DNA from: an uncultured bacterium
Lineage (GTDB): Bacteria > Methylomirabilota > Methylomirabilia > Methylomirabilales > CSP1-5
Length of the DNA: 64,000 bases
NCBI GenBank assembly: GCA_964348275.1
Contig: CAYGBT010000004.1
Span: forward strand, 45,449-109,448
Direction of reading: 5' to 3'
A program made the position numbers and the translations under genes. Below are positions 3,397 to 61,303 of this stretch, in pieces. The notes beneath the pieces are model-generated. The model was given only the letters and a program-made list of their open reading frames with translations, searched no databases and was not told the DNA's origin. How positions within the stretch are numbered: position 1 is the stretch's first letter; the number at the start of each line of letters is the position of its first letter.

Positions 3397-5189
3397 GAGG
3401 CTCCCCCCAACTTTGAAGTGCCAACCACGATTTCATTTCCCTCCCCAAGTCCTTTATCCATGGCCTGTAACGCCTCCGAGCGAATCCGTCCGGCCCGGTA
3501 GGCGCGGATGAAGGCCTCCACCACCTTGGGGTCGAACTGAGACCCTGCACATCGCTGGATTTCCCTAACCGCCGCTTCGTCGCTGATCCGTGGACGGTAG
3601 GGGCGGTCTGTGGTCATCGCGTCGAAGGTATCGGCCACGGCGATGATCCGGGATGCCATCGGAATCTCTTCCCCTTTTAGTCCGTCCGGATATCCCTGCC
3701 CATCGCACCGCTCCTGATGATGTCGCACCGCCGGAATTACGGCGTCGAGCTGCTTGATCGGGGCTAGGATCTCCGCCCCCAGTTCTGGATGCTCCCGGAT
3801 ATGCGCCAGCTCATCGGGAGTCAGGGGTCCGTCCTTTTGGAGCACCACATCTCGGATACCAATCTTGCCCACGTCGTGTAAGATGGCAGCAAGATGAAGC
3901 GTCTCCGTCTCCTCGGAGTTTAGGGTCAACTCCTCCCCTACGGTTAGGCAGATCTCGACCACCCGCCGGACATGGCCCCCCGTGTAGGGATCCCGCTTCT
4001 CGATCGCTTCGGCCAAGGTCGCCGCCGTACTCAAGAAGGTCTCCTTCACCTCTTCATAGAGTCGGGCATTTTCAATGGCAATACCCACCTGGCGAGACAG
4101 CGACTCAAACAGGCGTTGATCCTCCGCATCGAAGGGACGATCGGTGCGTCGGTTAAGAGCCTGCAGAACCCCGATGATCCGGTCCCGACTCTTGACGGGG
4201 ACGCAGATCATGTTTCGGGTGATGAAATGGGTTCGGAAGTCGACCCGTCGTGAAAACCGCGGATCTCGGCGCACGTCGCTCACAACGGTTGGCTTCCCCG
4301 TCTTGGCCACCCATCCAGCGATGCCCTCTCCGACCTTGAGCCGGACCTCCTTGACCTCCCTTCCCCGCTCTCCCAAAGCCACTTCGAAAACCAACTCGTC
4401 GCATTCTTCGTTTAGGAGGAGGAGGGATCCCACCTCACACTCCATGAGCCGGGTCGCGGCCTCAACGGCTAGCCGCAGCACTTCTGAGATTTGGAGCGTG
4501 GAGTTTAGAATGGCACTCAGCTCCATCAGGGTCGATGACTGAACGACCCGTTTTGCCGCCTCGGAGTAGAGTCGGGCGTTTTCCATTGTCATTCCCAACT
4601 GGTGTCCCATGGTGGTAGCCATCTCGGTATCTCGGGGGTCGAAGGCAGGAGAAGGCGGAAACCGCAGCAGTTCCAGCACTCCGACGATGCGGCCAGAGAC
4701 GCGGAGCGGAAGGACGAGAAGCGAAGCCCGCCCCCCCCTATATCGAGGAATGACCCAACCGTGCGGCCGTGCCCCGACGGTGCGAAGGAGCACGGTCTCG
4801 TCACCCGTGAAAAGCCCGCGGCGATACCCTCGCTTGAGGGAGACACTCTCCAGGGAGACTGTGGATCCATCGGTGCCCCGCTGAAGCCCAAAGAGGACCG
4901 TTTGTTTATCGGGATCGATCTGCAAGAGGATGCCGTAATCGGCTTCCAGGGTCTCGATAATGATTTTCAAGAGCAGATGGAAAAGCGATTCAGGCCGTAA
5001 GGTATTCGTGGACGCCCGGCGGATCGCCCTGAGCAGCTTGATGCGAAGGTCCTGTGTTTTCAACTCATTTTCCAGGACGGCAATCCGTGCCTGCTGACGG
5101 TCGAGCTGTTTCTGGTAGAGGGCCAGGAGCCGCCGCACTGCGAGTGGAGATTCCGGCTCGGTCCGGCGTGCCTGGCGATGTTTGCCCAC
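3393..5189 (-). CDS. GAF-GAF-HD-GYP domain protein (putative c-di-GMP phosphodiesterase)
   Basis: N-terminal coiled coil and two GAF-like regions. The C-terminus has AAILHDVGKI and HHERCDGQGYPDGL (HD-GYP signature). GTG start 8 nt after the trpA stop, preceded by GGAGAAGAGG. Confidence 0.85.
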   Translation of the reverse strand: MGKHRQARRTEPESPLAVRRLLALYQKQLDRQQARIAVLENELKTQDLRIKLLRAIRRASTNTLRPESLFHLLLKIIIETLEADYGILLQIDPDKQTVLFGLQRGTDGSTVSLESVSLKRGYRRGLFTGDETVLLRTVGARPHGWVIPRYRGGRASLLVLPLRVSGRIVGVLELLRFPPSPAFDPRDTEMATTMGHQLGMTMENARLYSEAAKRVVQSSTLMELSAILNSTLQISEVLRLAVEAATRLMECEVGSLLLLNEECDELVFEVALGERGREVKEVRLKVGEGIAGWVAKTGKPTVVSDVRRDPRFSRRVDFRTHFITRNMICVPVKSRDRIIGVLQALNRRTDRPFDAEDQRLFESLSRQVGIAIENARLYEEVKETFLSTAATLAEAIEKRDPYTGGHVRRVVEICLTVGEELTLNSEETETLHLAAILHDVGKIGIRDVVLQKDGPLTPDELAHIREHPELGAEILAPIKQLDAVIPAVRHHQERCDGQGYPDGLKGEEIPMASRIIAVADTFDAMTTDRPYRPRISDEAAVREIQRCAGSQFDPKVVEAFIRAYRAGRIRSEALQAMDKGLGEGNEIVVGTSKLGGAS

Positions 5190-56192: not shown

Positions 56193-56705
56193 TCACCTCG
56201 CCTGTTCGGGCCGTCGCTTTGGATGGATCACCGCCGTTACCCGCTCGCTTCCATCCCCTTCGACGACCTGACGGTCTTCCTTAATGAACAAGACTATCCG
56301 GGTCCCGCTCACCATGCTTTTGCGGCGCCACGCCTTGGGATGGCCCTCCAAGACCAACTCTTCCTGGGGGATATAATACGTTGCCCGTTCGGCCACCGCC
56401 TTAGACCCGTCGCTCCACGAAATATGGACTTCGCCAATTGCCACCATGCGTTCGACCTCTTCCATTTTCTCGTCAAAGTCTAATTCCATCCGATGAGCCG
56501 TGACCGTCAGATCGTTTGTGCTGACTACCACCTTACCAGTGTAGATCGCCCGGCGATCTTTTCTGTTTACTTCCAGACGGTCGGCGGTAACGGTTGTAGG
56601 CTGCTGTGGTTCCTCGTCTTGTGAGGATGGAGTCTGGGCGGTCACCGCGACCGTCCCGTATAAAACCAACACAACACATGCTGCCCATCTTCCCAACCGG
56701 GTCAT
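56193..56705 (-). CDS. lptA: LPS transport periplasmic protein LptA (OstA-like)
   Basis: Signal peptide plus an OstA_N-like beta-jellyroll (…ITADRLEV…GKVVV…); synteny. Confidence 0.8.
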   Translation of the reverse strand: MTRLGRWAACVVLVLYGTVAVTAQTPSSQDEEPQQPTTVTADRLEVNRKDRRAIYTGKVVVSTNDLTVTAHRMELDFDEKMEEVERMVAIGEVHISWSDGSKAVAERATYYIPQEELVLEGHPKAWRRKSMVSGTRIVLFIKEDRQVVEGDGSERVTAVIHPKRRPEQAR

Positions 56706-57286
56706 TGGTGCTGCTCCTGCTTTCTGGACAGCGTGACCTGAGAGGCAATCCGTTCGTGGATGGTCATTTGTTCCAGGACGGCGTCCGCCACCATCCCCTT
56801 GCCTTTGATTCGAAACCCCTCCTTCTCAATGACGACCGCGGCTTTAGTGCTGATTTTTTGGCTCCTCGTCGACCAGTTAAGGCGCTCGGTGAAAACCCTT
56901 GTCCCCTGGCTGGATTCTGACCGGACGTGGCCAATGAGCTGGAGATCTTTGGTTTCCAAGTCAACAACGGCCCTTTCGGCCAGCGCAGTTAACGTTTCCT
57001 CACCATTATAAATGACGATGCGGACAGGGTGCGTCACACGCCTGAAGACGGCTATGCCTCGATCCTCAAACACCTCCACCTTGTCTGCCTCAACGTCCCA
57101 CAGCTTCTCTCCCTTGCGCGTCTCTGTGATCCGAACCTGCTCGATGGCTGCATCAGGCCGTAGAGCAGGCGAACGGGGCGTGACCGGGGTGTGCTGCCGT
57201 TCCGCCGCCATCGGGACGCGCGAATCCAACAGGTTCGCCGAGGCTACCACGACAGTGACCATCAGCATGCACACAGAGAATCGCAT
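56702..57286 (-). CDS. lptC: LPS export system protein LptC
   Basis: N-terminal membrane anchor and LptC-like fold; synteny with lptA/lptB; ATGA-type overlap. Confidence 0.7.
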   Translation of the reverse strand: MRFSVCMLMVTVVVASANLLDSRVPMAAERQHTPVTPRSPALRPDAAIEQVRITETRKGEKLWDVEADKVEVFEDRGIAVFRRVTHPVRIVIYNGEETLTALAERAVVDLETKDLQLIGHVRSESSQGTRVFTERLNWSTRSQKISTKAAVVIEKEGFRIKGKGMVADAVLEQMTIHERIASQVTLSRKQEQHQ

Positions 57287-57394: not shown

Positions 57395-58615
57395 TCAGGC
57401 AAAGGCACTTAGGCCAGTGATGTCGCGGCCTAAAATGAGGGTATGAATATCGTGGGTCCCCTCATAGGTGTAGAGGCTCTCTAGGTTCAGCATGTGACGG
57501 ATCACCGGGTACTCGTCTACAATACCAGCAGCCCCTAATATCTCCCGGGCCAATCGGGCAATGTCCCTGGCCTTCTCCACATTGTTCATCTTGGCCAGGG
57601 AGATCTGGGTATGCGGGACTGGTCCTGCCTGCTTGAGTTGACCCAACCGGAAACAAAGAAGCTGAGCCTTCGTAATTTCAGTGAGCATAGAAACCAGCTT
57701 CTGTTGCACGAGTTGAAACCCGGCAATGGGGCGGTCAAATTGAATCCTGGTCTTGGCATACTTGAGGGCAACATCGTAGCAGGCCAGCGCGGCACCCACG
57801 GCTCCCCAGGCGATACCGTACCTCGCCTGGCTCAGGCACTTCAGGGCTGCCTTCAATCCCTCCTCGGTCCCCGGCAGGAGATTTTCTCCAGGGATACGGC
57901 AATCTTGGAAGATGAGCTCAGAGGTGATGGAGGCCCGCAGAGAGAATTTCCCGTGGATCTCTCTCGTGGTAAACCCCGGCATCCCCCTCTCCACCAATAG
58001 GCCCCGAATCCCTTCGTCGGTTCGGGCCCAGACCACCGCAACATCCGCAATGGAGCCATTGGTGATCCACAGCTTACTTCCATTCAAAATATAGTGATCG
58101 CCCCGGCGCACGGCCTTGGTCACCATACCGGCAGGATCTGACCCGTGGTCCGGCTCGGTAAGTCCAAAGCATCCGATCTTTTCTCCCTTCGCGAGGCGGG
58201 AAAGCCATTTCCCTTTCTGCTCCTCTGTGCCAAAGGCGTAGATCGGATACATGGCTAACGCTCCCTGGACAGAGGCAAAGCTTCGGAGTCCACTATCTCC
58301 TCGCTCGAGCTCCTGCATGATGAGCCCATATGCCACCTCCGAGACGCCAGGACAGCCATACCCTCGAAGATTAGCCCCGAGTACTCCTATTTCCCCAAGG
58401 CGTGGGATGAGTTCGCCCGGGAAGCTTCCCTCTCGGTGGTGGGTCTCTATGATCGGCAGCACTTCAGCATCGACGAAGGCTCGGACCGTGTCCCTGACCA
58501 ATCGCTCTTCATCTGTATACAGGTCATCAACCCGGTAGTAGTCTAGGCGAACAAACGGCTCCATATCGGTTTCAGGAAAAGAAGGGAGAGGCGTCTCAGG
58601 AGGAGAAGATACCAC
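57395..58615 (-). CDS. gcdH: Glutaryl-CoA dehydrogenase (acyl-CoA dehydrogenase family)
   Basis: Colinear from memory with GCDH: ...GVLG....GYGC.GVS.VAYGL...ELER.DSG.RS..SVQ..L.M.PIY..G.EEQ...L..LAKGE..GCFGLTEP..GSDP...KFSLRAS...ARYGIAWG...NLE...TYEGTHDIH.LILGR.ITG..AF. The start is either GTG 58615 or ATG 58564; neither has a clear SD. Confidence 0.88.
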   Translation of the reverse strand: MVSSPPETPLPSFPETDMEPFVRLDYYRVDDLYTDEERLVRDTVRAFVDAEVLPIIETHHREGSFPGELIPRLGEIGVLGANLRGYGCPGVSEVAYGLIMQELERGDSGLRSFASVQGALAMYPIYAFGTEEQKGKWLSRLAKGEKIGCFGLTEPDHGSDPAGMVTKAVRRGDHYILNGSKLWITNGSIADVAVVWARTDEGIRGLLVERGMPGFTTREIHGKFSLRASITSELIFQDCRIPGENLLPGTEEGLKAALKCLSQARYGIAWGAVGAALACYDVALKYAKTRIQFDRPIAGFQLVQQKLVSMLTEITKAQLLCFRLGQLKQAGPVPHTQISLAKMNNVEKARDIARLAREILGAAGIVDEYPVIRHMLNLESLYTYEGTHDIHTLILGRDITGLSAFA

Positions 58616-58789
58616 AGCCGCTAAGGGAAGACAAGAATAGCCTCCTTCCCTGAGGGAAACAGGTAAGCCTTCGAGCGCGTGATCGTCAGGGTGCCGGCAA
58701 TGCTGGCCCCCTCATTTCACGGTGGATCCGTCCTGGGGATTCTGGATAATTGATCCTCCTTCGACTCAGATCATCGGAATATAATTACA

Positions 58790-58809
58790 GCTGGGGGGAC
58801 ACCCCCAGC
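58790..58809 (-). terminator. GC-rich hairpin, intrinsic-terminator-like, 12 nt after the mini-ORF stop
   Basis: Minus-strand RNA GCUGGGGG-UGUC-CCCCCAGC (8 perfect bp) followed by UGUAAUUAUAUU. This is A/U-rich but not a clean U-tract. Confidence 0.55.
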
Positions 58810-58821
58810 CAGGTACCACCT

Positions 58822-58887
58822 CTATTTCTTCTTAGTGGCCTTTTTCTTCTTTGCCGGCTTCTTGGCGGCCTTCTTCTTCTTTGCCAT
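58822..58887 (-). CDS. Mini-ORF, 21-aa poly-lysine peptide MAKKKKAAKKPAKKKKATKKK
   Basis: ATG 58887 to TAG 58822. AGGAGGTGA is 6 nt upstream. An in-frame TGA lies immediately 5' of the ATG. Paralogous to the neighbouring mini-ORF. Confidence 0.5.
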   Translation of the reverse strand: MAKKKKAAKKPAKKKKATKKK

Positions 58888-58945
58888 TCAGTCTCACCTC
58901 CTTTCTTTCGGAGATCGTTCTTCGCGACCTAGCGAGGCACCTCTC

Positions 58946-59008
58946 TTATTTCTTCTTCTTGGGAGCTGCCTTCTTCGTAGTCTTTTTCGCCTTCCGCTTG
59001 GCTGCCAT
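58946..59008 (-). CDS. Mini-ORF, 20-aa lysine-rich peptide MAAKRKAKKTTKKAAPKKKK
   Basis: ATG 59008 to TAA 58946. GGGGGTGA is 6 nt upstream. An in-frame TGA lies 3 codons upstream. Same SD/ATGGCA context as the other mini-ORF. Confidence 0.5.
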   Translation of the reverse strand: MAAKRKAKKTTKKAAPKKKK

Positions 59009-59072
59009 TCCGTCTCACCCCCTTTCCTCGCAGGTCATCCCCCGCGACCCAGCTCAGGGGATGGGTTACACG

Positions 59073-59522
59073 TTATAGAAGTCGCGTCTGGGGGTCCTTG
59101 GCATAGACGCGTTTGGCCACGACCCCCACTAATTGCTCGGCAACGTTCAGCGTTGCTTCCAGCTCATAAAGGGAAATTGGGCGGTCCGCCGAATCCAAGA
59201 GATGCTGTGCCTTCTTTCGAACCTGATCGAGGTCCGCCACCATAGAGACCTCCTCCTCACTGACCAGGCAGGCCGTCAGTTGTAGAAGTGTCCGTGCTTG
59301 ATCTCGCCCTCTGGGACGAAGACCTTCCGCCAGCGTAAGGGCTCGAGCTGCTCGGAGCATTGAGTGAGCGGCAATGACGTAGGCCCACTCTGAATCGGTC
59401 CCCACCATGGCTTGAGCGGTCTTGAGATCTTTTTGAACTCTCGCCATAAGACGATTCGCGCGTTGCAAGTCAGGTGCCACCGCCTCCACCAAGCCCTTGG
59501 CCTTGAGTTGCTCAAAGATCAT
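59073..59522 (-). CDS. HEPN domain protein (Rx4H motif retained)
   Basis: 149 aa, all-helical, with C-terminal ...DQVRKKAQHLL (R-x4-H). 11-nt overlap with the upstream wHTH-NTase gene, the typical two-gene HEPN/NTase arrangement. Confidence 0.75.
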   Translation of the reverse strand: MIFEQLKAKGLVEAVAPDLQRANRLMARVQKDLKTAQAMVGTDSEWAYVIAAHSMLRAARALTLAEGLRPRGRDQARTLLQLTACLVSEEEVSMVADLDQVRKKAQHLLDSADRPISLYELEATLNVAEQLVGVVAKRVYAKDPQTRLL

Positions 59523-60072
59523 GGACCGATCCGATCAATGGGATCGTCCTTCCCTGTAGGACCTCCCGCAGGAAAGGGTCTCCCTCCGCTTTCCGCCGCT
59601 GATATTCCCCTTCGTCAAAGACCAGGCAATTGATACTCCGTCCGATGCGGAGCTCCAGGCCTGCTATGCCCCGATTCAATTGAGCCATGCGAGGTCGCCC
59701 CACCACCAGCAGATCAATCGCCTCTCCCTCCGGGCTCTCCGCCTCGCCAAAGATAAAAGCGACTCGAATTCCCGTAATGTTGCGCAACGCCTCACTAATC
59801 GCCTGCGGGACTCCATGAGTCTTATCGATGATCGCCTTGAGTTCTGGATAAATCGAAAAAGACGTATCGACGGTGTAATACCGAAGATTCCCAACCTTCG
59901 TGCTCGTCAGGAGGCCCGCCTTTTCCAAATTATCTAGCTCCCGCTTGATACCCGAGATGTCCCGTTTGAGCTCCCGGACAATCTCCCTCACGTAGAACCG
60001 ATCCTCTGGACGGCTCAAAAATAGCTCCAGCAGGTCAACCCGTGTCTCGGACGAAAAGAGCCTATCCAGCAT
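59512..60072 (-). CDS. Winged-HTH (ArsR-like) + nucleotidyltransferase-like domain protein, catalytic motif degenerate
   Basis: MLDRLFSSETRVDLLELFLSRP...YVREIVRELKRDISGIKRELDNLEKAGLL (wHTH), then ...RVAFIFGEAESPEGEAIDLLVVG, where the canonical G-S...D-x-D is GE...IDL. Start set to ATG 60072 (GAGGGA upstream); the ORF-track extension runs through the AT-rich promoter. Confidence 0.7.
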   Translation of the reverse strand: MLDRLFSSETRVDLLELFLSRPEDRFYVREIVRELKRDISGIKRELDNLEKAGLLTSTKVGNLRYYTVDTSFSIYPELKAIIDKTHGVPQAISEALRNITGIRVAFIFGEAESPEGEAIDLLVVGRPRMAQLNRGIAGLELRIGRSINCLVFDEGEYQRRKAEGDPFLREVLQGRTIPLIGSVHDL

Positions 60073-60093
60073 CTGAATGTTCCCTCGATGAAA

Positions 60094-60123
60094 GAAATAC
60101 ATCAAAGGATATTTTTTTGTCAA
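60094..60123 (-). promoter_or_regulatory. Candidate promoter in an AT-rich island upstream of the wHTH-NTase/HEPN genes
   Basis: Minus strand reads TTGACA (60123-60118), 17-18 nt, then GTATTT/TATTTC. It sits in a strikingly AT-rich ~110-bp stretch of an otherwise GC-rich window. Confidence 0.45.
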
Positions 60124-60137
60124 CACTTTTTTACACT

Positions 60138-60157
60138 TTTCAAAAAAAATTTTGAAA
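60138..60157. promoter_or_regulatory. Inverted repeat TTTCAAAA-N4-TTTTGAAA just upstream of the -35 (possible operator)
   Basis: Perfect 8-bp arms. The adjacent direct repeat ACACTTTT-TT-ACACTTTT lies at 60123-60140. Confidence 0.35.
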
Positions 60158-60271
60158 TCAACAGATATACCACTTCGGCTTACAGATTGCTTCAAGAGGA
60201 GTGAGACATTGTATGAAAGGAAATGAGAATAGCCGGAGACAAGCAGCCATCCCCGCGTCAGTGCAAGGCCT

Positions 60272-61303
60272 TTACCCTTCTTCTCGCGCCAAGCCTAGCG
60301 GGCCTCCGGGAGATTCCATTTCTCCAAAGAAGAGGGGGCGCTCGAAGCTTCGGTGGAAGACGGTCCACCCCCCACGGTGCGGATCGGGGTGGTGTTTGAC
60401 CAGTTTCAGAAAGAGGTTAACCTTCCCGTCCAAATTTTCCACCGCATGTAGAATGAGGGCCTCGACTGTCTTTGGGCGCCGTGGGGACCCCCACTCATAC
60501 TGTCCGTGATGACTCAGGAGGTTGTGAAGCAGCTCCATGCGGAGTTGCGACGGGAAGTCCGGAATCTGTTGGATGTGTTCTTCAACAAATAATACTCCCT
60601 CGGTAATGTGCCCAAGCAGCCGTCCCTCATCGGAATAATCGAATCCACGTCCCCATGTCAGTTCAAAGATCTTTCCCACATCGTGGAGGATGGCGCTAGC
60701 GACGAGCAGATCGCGATCGACCGCCCGCCCATAATGGGAGGCGATGGCCTCGCAGATCTTGACCACCGAGACGGTGTGTTCGAGCAGACCTCCGAGGTAC
60801 GCGTGGTGGAGCCCTTTGGCCGCTGGCGCCGCAGCAAAGGCCTCGCGAAAGCCTTCTTCCTCAAAAATCCTGGAGAGGAGCTGTTTGAGCGGCTCGCTCG
60901 CAAGAGTGCGGATCCTCTCCTGGAGAAAAGTGAGCATGGAGGGGACATCGGCCTCCGTGGCGGGCAGAAAATCTTCCAGTGCAGCCTCCCCTTCCCGAGC
61001 GTGGCGTAGGCGATGAATAGTGAGTTGCATCTCTCCCTGATAACTCCCGACCATACCCTGCACTTTCACGAGATCCCCCTCCCGGATCCGTTCTCCCACC
61101 CCCTCGAGGTCTTCCCACATCACTGCCGGGAGCTCACCGGTCTGGTCAGCCAAGAGGAGGCTCAGAAAGGGCTCGCCGGTTTTTCGGAGCCGCAATTGGG
61201 GATTTCGTACTAAGAAGAAGGAGATGACGGTATCGTTGAGCTTCAGGTCTTTGACGGCCACTCGCTCAGCCACCACCTTGCTCCCATCCGCGATGCCCAT
61301 CAT
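60272..61303 (-). CDS. OB-fold + HD-domain phosphohydrolase (YhaM/Cbf1-like 3'-5' exoribonuclease family)
   Basis: N-terminal OB fold (…FLVRNPQLRLRKTGEPFLSLLLADQTGELPAVMW…VKVQG…) and an HD domain (…LLEHTVSV…AILHDVGK…). Confidence 0.8.
   Translation of the reverse strand: MMGIADGSKVVAERVAVKDLKLNDTVISFFLVRNPQLRLRKTGEPFLSLLLADQTGELPAVMWEDLEGVGERIREGDLVKVQGMVGSYQGEMQLTIHRLRHAREGEAALEDFLPATEADVPSMLTFLQERIRTLASEPLKQLLSRIFEEEGFREAFAAAPAAKGLHHAYLGGLLEHTVSVVKICEAIASHYGRAVDRDLLVASAILHDVGKIFELTWGRGFDYSDEGRLLGHITEGVLFVEEHIQQIPDFPSQLRMELLHNLLSHHGQYEWGSPRRPKTVEALILHAVENLDGKVNLFLKLVKHHPDPHRGGWTVFHRSFERPLFFGEMESPGGPLGLAREEG

What the first reader, a model, noticed from the sequence alone, without database searches (positions are those of the whole stretch)
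59073..60195. AT-rich islet carrying a wHTH-pseudo-nucleotidyltransferase + HEPN(Rx4H) pair, co-oriented with the poly-Lys mini-ORFs
This is the only accessory-looking DNA in the window. A ~110-bp AT-rich stretch (60090-60200) carries TTGACA-17/18-TATTTC, a perfect inverted repeat TTTCAAAA-N4-TTTTGAAA and a direct repeat ACACTTTT x2. It precedes two overlapping genes. The first fuses an ArsR-like wHTH to an NTase-like domain whose catalytic G-S...D-x-D is degenerate (FGEAESPEGEAIDLLVV). The second is a HEPN protein that keeps an R-x4-H motif (VRKKAQH). Gene order matches HEPN/MNT (type VII toxin-antitoxin-like) modules. However, an NTase lacking catalytic residues and fused to a DNA-binding domain suggests neutralisation or regulation by binding rather than by nucleotidylylation. 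No terminator is visible between HEPN and the two Lys-rich mini-ORFs. The first strong hairpin comes only after them, so all four ORFs may form one transcription unit.
Basis: partly seen in the sequence, partly recalled or inferred. Interest (0 to 1): 0.55.

Follow-up and report, generated by a model that had tools for sequence, protein, structure and literature searches.

The report
Decayed MNT–HEPN pair plus polylysine micropeptides
This is not a mobile toxin–antitoxin islet: it is a chromosomally fixed, enzymatically decayed relative of a toxin–antitoxin/defence pair that, across two bacterial phyla, always sits in front of tiny genes for 12–25-residue peptides made mostly of lysine, and that linkage appears to be undescribed.

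Summary
ORF1 starts at 60072, not 60195 (186 aa). It has an ArsR-like winged helix plus an MNT-fold domain, and it overlaps a 149-aa HEPN-fold gene by 11 nt. PADLOC models call the pair PDC-M05, a known candidate defence system. The window comes from a Methylomirabilota (NC10) genome.

The pair is not accessory DNA. Its G+C content is genome-like. It holds the same chromosomal position throughout NC10, and it recurs in Nitrospirota.

None of 80 related loci keeps the NTase DxD motif, whereas the wider family does. In the HEPN partner, Arg102 is invariant, but a His at positions 106–108 occurs in only 10 of 72 orthologs. The Tyr found in canonical partners is Glu/Asp here. Thermodesulfovibrionales have lost the HEPN gene altogether.

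The Lys-rich mini-ORFs are conserved throughout. With a Shine-Dalgarno (SD) sequence, 134 lie just downstream in the 80 loci and none lie in the other 1.17 Mb. None were found in 80 catalytically intact relatives.

A near-consensus promoter is also conserved, with an inverted repeat around its −10 box.

Best reading: a domesticated, autoregulating DNA-binding module co-operonic with polycationic micropeptides. The peptides' function is unknown.

The parts
60124..60160 (-). A/T-rich tract upstream of the -35 box (UP-element-like).
   Evidence: 31% G+C. The TTTTTTGA[AG]AA..GTGTTGACA part is conserved in NC10 loci, but the left arm of the perfect inverted repeat is not.
60118..60123 (-). -35 hexamer TTGACA
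   Evidence: Read from the sequence. TTGACA is present in nearly all of the 80 related loci.
60094..60099 (-). -10 hexamer TATTTC, 18 nt after the -35 box
   Evidence: Orthologs have TATTTA, TATATA, TATAAA or TATATT at the same spacing.
60085..60105 (-). Imperfect inverted repeat TTGATG-N9-CATCGA around the -10 box; candidate operator of the wHTH protein
   Evidence: The pattern T[TC]G[AT]TG-N9-CA[AT]C[AG]A matches at 4 or more of 6 positions in 59 of the 76 promoters that could be scored. Binding is inferred, not shown.
59512..60072 (-). 186-aa protein: ArsR/SmtB-like winged helix (about residues 1-85) plus an MNT-fold domain lacking the GS and DxD catalytic residues (pseudo-nucleotidyltransferase)
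   Evidence: PADLOC PDC-M05A E=8.6e-42. AF2 pLDDT 92. Foldseek hits to HlyU/SqrR/CzrA and to MNT antitoxins 8xeo, 6m6u and 8xeh. Motif alignments.
59073..59522 (-). 149-aa HEPN-fold protein. It overlaps ORF1 by 11 nt. R102 is invariant, and H107 is not conserved.
   Evidence: PADLOC PDC-M05B E=5.9e-8. Pfam HEPN at 18.6 bits, below the cut-off of 22. AF2 pLDDT 90. Foldseek hits to 1ufb, 3o10, 2hsb and 1wol. Residue counts.
59037..59062 (-). Intercistronic hairpin (ATCCCC...GGGGGAT) without a T-tract
   Evidence: Conserved in 11 close loci with little covariation.
58946..59008 (-). Mini-ORF 1: MAAKRKAKKTTKKAAPKKKK (20 aa), preceded by the SD sequence AAGGGGGTGA
   Evidence: Equivalent ORFs occur in all related loci that have enough downstream sequence.
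58822..58887 (-). Mini-ORF 2: MAKKKKAAKKPAKKKKATKKK (21 aa), preceded by the SD sequence AAGGAGGTGA. It is a tandem copy of the ~121-nt unit.
   Evidence: (D2-D4).
58788..58811 (-). G+C-rich hairpin (GCTGGGGG-N4-CCCCCAGC); the likely end of the transcription unit
   Evidence: Terminator-like site. A stable hairpin follows the last mini-ORF in 60 of 72 loci.

Best explanation
The locus is a chromosomally fixed, catalytically decayed descendant of a wHTH-MNT/HEPN module. That module is the PADLOC PDC-M05 type and resembles a type VII toxin-antitoxin system.

Shown:
- The 186-aa protein is an ArsR-like winged-helix DNA binder fused to an MNT-fold domain that has lost its catalytic GS/DxD residues.
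- The 149-aa partner has a HEPN fold. It has no conserved catalytic His, and it lacks the Tyr that canonical partners carry.
- The two genes overlap by 11 nt in every locus of the clade that has both.
- They are followed by one to three SD-preceded genes for 12-25-aa peptides of about 55% Lys, and then by a hairpin.
- They are preceded by a conserved near-consensus sigma-70 promoter whose -10 box is bracketed by an inverted repeat.
- The whole arrangement is inherited at fixed positions in Methylomirabilota and Nitrospirota.

Inferred:
- The wHTH protein binds the inverted repeat over the -10 box and autoregulates one transcript. It probably does so as a complex with the HEPN protein, in the way a toxin-antitoxin antitoxin/co-repressor pair works.
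- The conserved cargo of that transcript is the polycationic micropeptides.
- The dead NTase-HEPN pocket may act as a ligand (nucleotide) sensor.
- The module therefore works as a transcriptional switch for the Lys-rich peptides. It does not work as an RNase toxin held in check by nucleotidylylation.
For: - Family and folds.
- NTase motif: the wider family keeps GS...SDIDL, but none of the 80 clade loci has both Asp residues. They read AxD, NxN, DxN, AxF and so on. The GS position varies freely within NC10.
- HEPN: R102 72/72 and Q106 68/72. A His at positions 106-108 occurs in 10/72. Position 110 is Glu/Asp in 72/72, where canonical partners read RxRxxRHxxxY.
- HEPN loss: the gene is absent within about 4 kb in 9 Thermodesulfovibrionales loci that keep the wHTH-MNT gene and a mini-ORF.
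- Mini-ORFs: 134 SD-preceded Lys-rich ORFs lie within 450 nt downstream in the 80 loci, against 0 in the remaining 1.17 Mb. By strict criteria 74 of 78 loci have one, and the other 4 have one just under the Lys threshold. None occur in 80 catalytically intact relatives.
- wHTH: the recognition helix RDISGIKRELDNLEKAGLL..KVGNLRYY is nearly invariant in NC10.
- Promoter and inverted repeat are conserved.
- No terminator-like site before the mini-ORFs, and a hairpin after them.
- Synteny and housekeeping neighbours, and genome-like G+C.
Against: - There are no expression, binding or peptide data. Co-transcription, operator binding, complex formation and translation of the mini-ORFs are all inferred.
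- The window's own HEPN protein does carry R102-x4-H107. That spacing is in register with the RxxxxH of TT1696 in a profile alignment, so residual RNase activity in this sub-clade is not excluded.
- One NC10 homologue (P0044) has DVD, although it has ST in place of GS.
- A cold-seep PDC-M05 representative was reported to give some phage protection in E. coli (bioRxiv 10.1101/2024.09.26.614923).
- The inverted repeat around the -10 box is imperfect. It is weak in Nitrospiria and absent in Thermodesulfovibrionales.
- The function of the peptides is unknown.
Confidence: 0.5

Rival explanations
1. This is a working PDC-M05 / type VII-like toxin-antitoxin or anti-phage module. The HEPN protein is an Rx4H RNase toxin, and the wHTH-pseudo-NTase neutralises it by binding and represses the operon. 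Under it, the mini-ORFs are incidental.
For: - Both PADLOC PDC-M05 models hit.
- Gene order and the gene overlap are typical of MNT/HEPN pairs.
- R102-x4-H107 is present in the window and in 9 close orthologs, and it aligns with the RxxxxH of TT1696.
- One PDC-M05 system was reported to be protective.
Against: - The His is replaced by Q, L, Y, R, S, T and other residues in 62 of 72 orthologs that are otherwise strongly conserved.
- The Tyr target is lost.
- The HEPN gene is lost in one lineage while its supposed antitoxin is retained.
- The pair has a fixed position among housekeeping genes and shows no sign of mobility.
- The strict linkage to the mini-ORFs is left unexplained.
Confidence: 0.2
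2. The Lys-rich peptides are the effector or toxin. Examples would be nucleic-acid-condensing or membrane-active polycations. The dead wHTH-MNT(/HEPN) proteins would be their dedicated repressor, chaperone or antidote. That would make this a new kind of three-part stress or abortive-infection module derived from a toxin-antitoxin system.
For: - The linkage of the peptides to the wHTH-MNT gene is more constant than the linkage of the HEPN gene.
- The promoter is strong, with an inverted repeat over the -10 box, and the mini-ORFs have strong SD sequences.
- Position 110 of HEPN is invariably acidic in the clade.
Against: - There is no evidence that the peptides are made or are harmful.
- The peptides are very low in complexity and vary in length, which argues against a specific protein partner.
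- The neighbours are housekeeping genes, not defence genes.
Confidence: 0.15
3. The mini-ORFs are not a protein-coding cargo. They would be an A/G-rich RNA element, such as a 3'UTR, sRNA or stability element, or an independently expressed small gene that merely neighbours the pair. The pair would regulate other targets.
For: - The sequence is low in complexity and purine-rich, and a conserved hairpin lies upstream.
- No Pfam or NCBIfam family matches the peptides.
Against: - Every copy has an ATG or GTG start 5-9 nt after a strong SD sequence, and an open Lys frame ending in KKK-stop. This holds despite large nucleotide divergence across two phyla.
- Such ORFs occur nowhere else in 1.17 Mb of flanking sequence.
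- There is no Rfam match.
Confidence: 0.15

Closest known systems
PADLOC candidate defence system PDC-M05 (M05A ArsR-like HTH + KNTase-like nucleotidyltransferase; M05B HEPN)
   Same: Both HMMs hit (PDLC04368 E=8.6e-42 over the full length; PDLC04374 E=5.9e-8), and the genes are adjacent in the order A then B. The domain content matches what is described in PMC12988326 and bioRxiv 10.1101/2024.09.26.614923.
   Different: - The catalytic GS/DxD residues of M05A are lost, and the His and Tyr of M05B are not conserved.
- The pair is chromosomally fixed and inherited in parallel with taxonomy.
- It always carries Lys-rich mini-ORFs, which 80 catalytically intact relatives lack.
Type VII toxin-antitoxin HepT/MntA (Shewanella SO_3166/SO_3165; Aphanizomenon HEPN/MNT; PDB 6m6u, 7bxo, 7ae8, 8xeh)
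   Same: The MNT fold and HEPN fold are recovered by Foldseek. The MNT gene comes first, and the two genes overlap.
   Different: - From my own knowledge of the published work: MntA neutralises HepT by poly-AMPylating a Tyr next to the Rx4H motif.
- Here the NTase carboxylates, the Tyr and the conserved His are all missing.
- An N-terminal wHTH domain is added.
ArsR/SmtB-family winged-helix repressors (HlyU, SqrR, CzrA, SmtB)
   Same: The N-terminal ~85 residues superpose on them with TM-scores (normalised to target length) of 0.62-0.70. There are weak HMM hits to HTH_20, HTH_5 and NF033788. A palindromic site lies over the promoter.
   Different: All sequence hits are below the curated cut-offs. 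No metal- or sulfide-sensing site was identified. The domain is fused to an MNT-fold domain rather than standing alone.
'Domesticated' MNT-HEPN derivatives and inactive HEPN regulators (kanamycin NTase, GlnE/GlnD-type, MtlR), as discussed by Anantharaman et al. 2013 (PMC3710099)
   Same: The concept is the same: a former toxin-antitoxin pair in which HEPN loses its RNase residues and serves as a binding or regulatory partner.
   Different: In those cases the NTase stays active and is fused to HEPN. Here both partners look inactive, remain separate genes, and are linked to micropeptide genes.

Membership tests
PADLOC PDC-M05 | Hit to a PDC-M05A model | tested here: met
   PDLC04368 E=8.6e-42, residues 3-186 against model positions 8-195 of 201.
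PADLOC PDC-M05 | Hit to a PDC-M05B model in the adjacent gene | tested here: met
   PDLC04374 E=5.9e-8, full length. The genes overlap by 11 nt.
PADLOC PDC-M05 | Anti-phage function | not testable with these tools
   The only evidence is a literature report for one cold-seep representative. The context here is housekeeping genes.
Type VII TA HepT/MntA | MNT with catalytic G-S...D-x-D | tested here: not met
   The window reads GE...AID. None of the 80 clade loci has both Asp residues.
Type VII TA HepT/MntA | HEPN with a conserved Rx4-6H RNase motif | tested here: inconclusive
   R102-x4-H107 is present in this protein, but a His occurs in only 10 of 72 orthologs. R102 is invariant. The alignment register against canonical partners is ambiguous.
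Type VII TA HepT/MntA | Tyr near the motif as the nucleotidylylation target | tested here: not met
   Canonical partners read RxRxxRHxxxY. The aligned position 110 is Asp or Glu in 72/72.
Type VII TA HepT/MntA | HEPN toxicity relieved by MNT | not testable with these tools
   This needs expression assays.
HEPN superfamily | Four-helix up-down HEPN fold | tested here: met
   AF2 pLDDT 90. Foldseek hits to 1ufb, 3o10, 2hsb and 1wol at probability 1.0 with TM-scores of 0.58-0.78. Pfam PF05168 scores 18.6 bits, below the cut-off of 22, but many orthologs carry precomputed PF05168 hits.
Pol-beta-like minimal nucleotidyltransferase (fold) | MNT alpha/beta fold | tested here: met
   Foldseek hits to 8xeo, 6m6u and 8xeh MNT antitoxins, with TM-scores (normalised to target length) of 0.51-0.63. 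There is no Pfam NTP_transf_2 hit for this protein, although relatives with an intact motif have one.
ArsR/SmtB wHTH | Winged-helix fold and family HMM above the cut-off | tested here: inconclusive
   The fold is met. HMM scores are 21.2/27 for HTH_20 and 28.5/55 for NF033788, both below the cut-offs.

The most novel reading that the evidence does not exclude
The real cargo of this operon is an undescribed class of ribosomally made, polylysine-like micropeptides. They are 12-25 aa long and about 55% Lys, and they occur in 1-3 tandem genes. Their expression would be gated by a toxin-antitoxin-derived, enzymatically dead wHTH-MNT/HEPN sensor. In this reading a domesticated toxin-antitoxin module has become the regulator, or the chaperone or antidote, of polycationic effector peptides. 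It would have been conserved since before Methylomirabilota and Nitrospirota diverged.
Probability: 0.35. Interest if true: 0.8.

Novelty: new variant of a known kind. Interest (0 to 1): 0.62.

Why it matters
- **Defence censuses.** Automated pipelines would count this locus as a PDC-M05 defence or toxin-antitoxin system. The evidence says this whole clade in two phyla has lost the catalytic residues and behaves like a housekeeping operon. Censuses of 'defence systems' in Nitrospirota and Methylomirabilota may therefore be inflated.
- **Domestication.** It is a clear, testable case of a toxin-antitoxin module turning into a regulatory module, with both partners inactivated.
- **Hidden peptides.** It points to a family of extremely Lys-rich micropeptides. 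Gene callers miss them, and I would expect (not tested) trypsin-based proteomics to miss them too. They occur in environmentally important nitrite oxidisers and nitrite-dependent methane oxidisers. Their strict genetic linkage gives a direct handle for finding out what they do.

Tried and rejected
- Sequence search of both proteins against PDB gave only marginal ArsR hits for ORF1 and nothing for ORF2. Fold search was needed.
- The Rfam search of 58500-60400 gave no match.
- Pfam and NCBIfam gave nothing for four micropeptides.
- Literature searches for Lys-rich small proteins or ORFs together with HEPN, Nitrospira or nucleoid found nothing relevant. The AbiV 'small ORF' is an unrelated RNA component.
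- Alignments A1 and A5 were too diverse for locus scans. A3 and A6 worked.
- The 227-aa TTG-started ORF was rejected as the gene model.
- A mobile-element origin for this clade was rejected. There were no IMG/VR or phage hits, and plasmid hits were only distant relatives at 30-35% identity. The one plasmid relative inspected has an intact motif and lies next to mazEF.
- The intercistronic hairpin shows too little covariation to be claimed as a structured RNA element.
- Prediction of the ORF1:ORF2 complex was not possible with the tools offered.
Full report
**What is there.** On the minus strand, a 186-aa ORF (60072-59512) overlaps a 149-aa ORF (59522-59073) by 11 nt. The 227-aa version of ORF1 that starts at the TTG at 60195 is an artefact. 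All homologues begin at MLDRLF, and the promoter lies inside the extension. Two SD-preceded mini-ORFs follow: MAAKRKAKKTTKKAAPKKKK (59008-58946) and MAKKKKAAKKPAKKKKATKKK (58887-58822). They sit on a tandemly duplicated unit of about 121 nt. A G+C-rich hairpin at 58811-58788 comes next. No terminator-like site lies between the HEPN gene and the mini-ORFs.

The upstream 128 nt are 31% G+C, against 58.7% for the window. The two genes themselves are 54.7% and 56.7% G+C. TTGACA (60123-60118), an 18-nt spacer and TATTTC (60099-60094) are present. So are the perfect inverted repeat at 60138-60157 and the ACACTTTT direct repeat.

**What the proteins are.**
- Pfam and NCBIfam give only sub-threshold winged-helix hits for ORF1 and no NTP_transf_2 hit. 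They give a sub-threshold HEPN hit for ORF2.
- PADLOC models identify ORF1 as PDC-M05A (E=8.6e-42, full length) and ORF2 as PDC-M05B (E=5.9e-8).
- PDC-M05 is a described candidate defence system with an ArsR-like HTH + KNTase-like NTase and a HEPN protein. It is enriched in archaea, resembles a toxin-antitoxin module, and is largely unvalidated (PMC12988326). One cold-seep representative was reported to give some phage protection in E. coli (bioRxiv 10.1101/2024.09.26.614923).
- The AlphaFold2 model of ORF1 has pLDDT 92. Its N-terminal domain matches ArsR/SmtB repressors (HlyU, SqrR, CzrA). Its C-terminal domain matches MNT antitoxins (8xeo, 6m6u MntA, 8xeh).
- The ORF2 model has pLDDT 90 and matches HEPN structures (TT1696 1ufb, sacsin HEPN 3o10, AF0298 2hsb, ST0689 1wol).

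**The pair is not accessory DNA.** Homologues at 54-91% identity all come from Methylomirabilota (NC10), so the window is from that phylum. In NC10 genomes the pair always lies upstream of lptC-lptA, with or without an intervening acyl-CoA dehydrogenase gene. In the window's own sub-clade it lies between a yhaM-like OB-HD gene and that dehydrogenase gene.

A scan of species-representative genomes returned about 45 Methylomirabilota and 35 Nitrospirota loci. In Nitrospiria the neighbours are a DEAD-box helicase, ftsB/DivIC and a GH57 enzyme. In Thermodesulfovibrionales they are lpxC and an AP endonuclease. Nothing related was found in IMG/VR or in phage genomes. Only distant relatives, at 30-35% identity, occur on plasmids. 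The one inspected has an intact GS...DVD motif and lies next to mazEF on a Cupriavidus conjugative plasmid.

**Both active sites have decayed.** The wider family numbers 1531 50%-identity clusters at E<=1e-10. Its consensus is AFIYGSxAxGxxxxxSDIDL.
- The window protein reads FIFGEAESP---EGEAIDL. Gly-Ser has become Gly-Glu, the first Asp has become Ala, and there is a 3-4-residue deletion in the loop.
- Within NC10 both positions vary freely.
- None of the 80 genomic loci has both Asp residues. NC10 loci read AxD, AxF, PxL and similar. Nitrospiria read NxN or DxN. Thermodesulfovibrionales read AxD. One NC10 metagenomic homologue (P0044) does have DVD, but with ST in place of GS.
- The Glu of the conserved REINY strand is Ser in the window. 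I infer that this Glu is the third carboxylate. I did not test this.
- In the HEPN partner, R102 is invariant (72/72) and Q106 is nearly so (68/72). A His at positions 106-108 occurs in only 10 of 72 orthologs. All ten are the window and related NC10 loci, and even within that group Q, L and Y occur.
- Canonical partners of intact NTases read RxRxxRHxxxY. The Tyr position is Glu or Asp in all 72 clade members. Anantharaman et al. predicted such a Tyr to be the nucleotidylylation site (PMC3710099).
- The register of the window's R-x4-H is ambiguous. It is shifted by one residue against canonical partners, but it is in register with the RxxxxH of TT1696. The motif is therefore literally present, but it is not under conservation.
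- Nine Thermodesulfovibrionales loci have no HEPN gene within about 4 kb, yet they keep the wHTH-MNT gene.

**The unexpected constant is the Lys-rich mini-ORFs.**
- Every locus with enough downstream sequence carries one to three of them directly after the pair. In Thermodesulfovibrionales they come directly after the wHTH-MNT gene.
- With strict criteria (10-35 aa, at least 45% Lys, SD within 16 nt), 134 such ORFs lie in the 450 nt downstream of the 80 loci, which is 34 kb in total. None lie in the other 1.17 Mb on both strands. The window has only its two.
- 74 of 78 loci score under the strict criteria. The other four have the same kind of ORF just under the Lys threshold.
- The peptides are 12-25 aa long (median 18). 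Their composition is 55% Lys, 25% Ala, 8% Thr and 3% Pro.
- As a control, 80 metagenomic loci of relatives with an intact SD[IV]D motif were examined. 74 of them had at least 150 nt of downstream sequence, and none had an SD-preceded Lys-rich ORF. These loci were retrieved with a pattern that includes the intact motif.
- The mini-ORFs match no Pfam, NCBIfam or Rfam family, and I found no literature on them.

**Regulatory signals.**
- TTGACA-18-TATxxx, preceded by an A/T tract, is conserved in NC10 and Nitrospiria.
- An imperfect inverted repeat brackets the -10 box, with the pattern T[TC]G[AT]TG-N9-CA[AT]C[AG]A. The window has TTGATG (60105-60100) and CATCGA (60090-60085).
- The repeat matches at 4 or more of 6 positions in 59 of the 76 promoters that could be scored. 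It is best in NC10, weaker in Nitrospiria and absent in Thermodesulfovibrionales.
- The wHTH recognition region is nearly invariant in NC10. This site is a better operator candidate than 60138-60157, which is not conserved.
- A stable hairpin follows the last mini-ORF in 60 of 72 loci.
- A conserved hairpin without a T-tract lies between the HEPN gene and mini-ORF 1 (59062-59037).

**Interpretation.** The best-supported reading is that a wHTH-MNT/HEPN (PDC-M05-type) module was domesticated. It lost both enzymatic activities and kept DNA binding, and probably also the MNT-HEPN interaction. It now autoregulates a strongly promoted operon whose conserved cargo is polycationic micropeptides (confidence 0.5). 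The anatomy, the residue losses and the linkage are shown. Binding, co-transcription, translation and the role of the peptides are inferred.

The rival readings are:
- a still-active binding-neutralised toxin-antitoxin or defence pair (0.2);
- the peptides acting as effector or toxin, with the pair as their regulator or antidote (0.15);
- mini-ORFs that are non-coding or merely adjacent (0.15).

**Novelty and verdict.** The pair belongs, by HMM, to a known candidate system. It fails the catalytic criteria of type VII HepT/MntA. The catalytically dead, vertically inherited clade and its obligate association with polylysine-like micropeptide genes appear to be undescribed. I rate it a new variant of a known kind, with interest 0.62.

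Noticed in passing
window 58817-59053 (minus strand); L024 5049-5211: The mini-ORF unit (leader + SD + ORF) is a tandem duplication of about 121 nt. In L024 the two copies encode the identical peptide. This suggests concerted evolution or repeated recent duplication.
   Followed up: partly
window 59037-59062 (minus strand): A conserved hairpin (ATCCCC...GGGGGAT) without a T-tract lies between the HEPN stop codon and mini-ORF 1. It may be a processing or stability element. Covariation is minimal.
   Followed up: partly
window 56193-57286; L080 4984-5862: Lipopolysaccharide (LPS) genes recur next to the cassette. In NC10, lptC-lptA (then lptB-rpoN-hpf) lie downstream. In Thermodesulfovibrionales, lpxC is convergent with it. 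Coincidence is not excluded.
   Followed up: partly
L050-L075, about 60 nt upstream of the -35 box: Nitrospiria loci share a second conserved upstream motif, TGTTGATAAATTGTCTAAC. It could be an additional operator or promoter.
   Followed up: no
L077, L079-L081, just upstream of the ATG at 4001: In Thermodesulfovibrionales the start codon lies only 6-7 nt after the -10-like TATAAA(T). This suggests a leaderless mRNA.
   Followed up: no
window 60272-61303 and 60225-60254 (minus strand): The upstream gene is a YhaM-like OB-fold + HD-domain protein (NF010007 E=2.9e-52, below the equivalog cut-off). A terminator-like hairpin follows it, which separates it from the cassette's promoter.
   Followed up: partly
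L036, L043, L046, L066: Contigs from metagenome-assembled genomes labelled Baltobacteraceae, Planctomycetota, Patescibacteria and Betaproteobacteria carry NC10-type or Nitrospirota-type cassettes. They are probably mis-binned contigs rather than horizontal transfers.
   Followed up: no
L172 (NZ_CP032520.1 331094-332111): A distant relative with an intact GS...DVD motif, together with its HEPN partner (KRNLAEYEG motif), lies next to mazEF on a conjugative Cupriavidus plasmid. This shows the mobile, canonical state of the family.
   Followed up: partly
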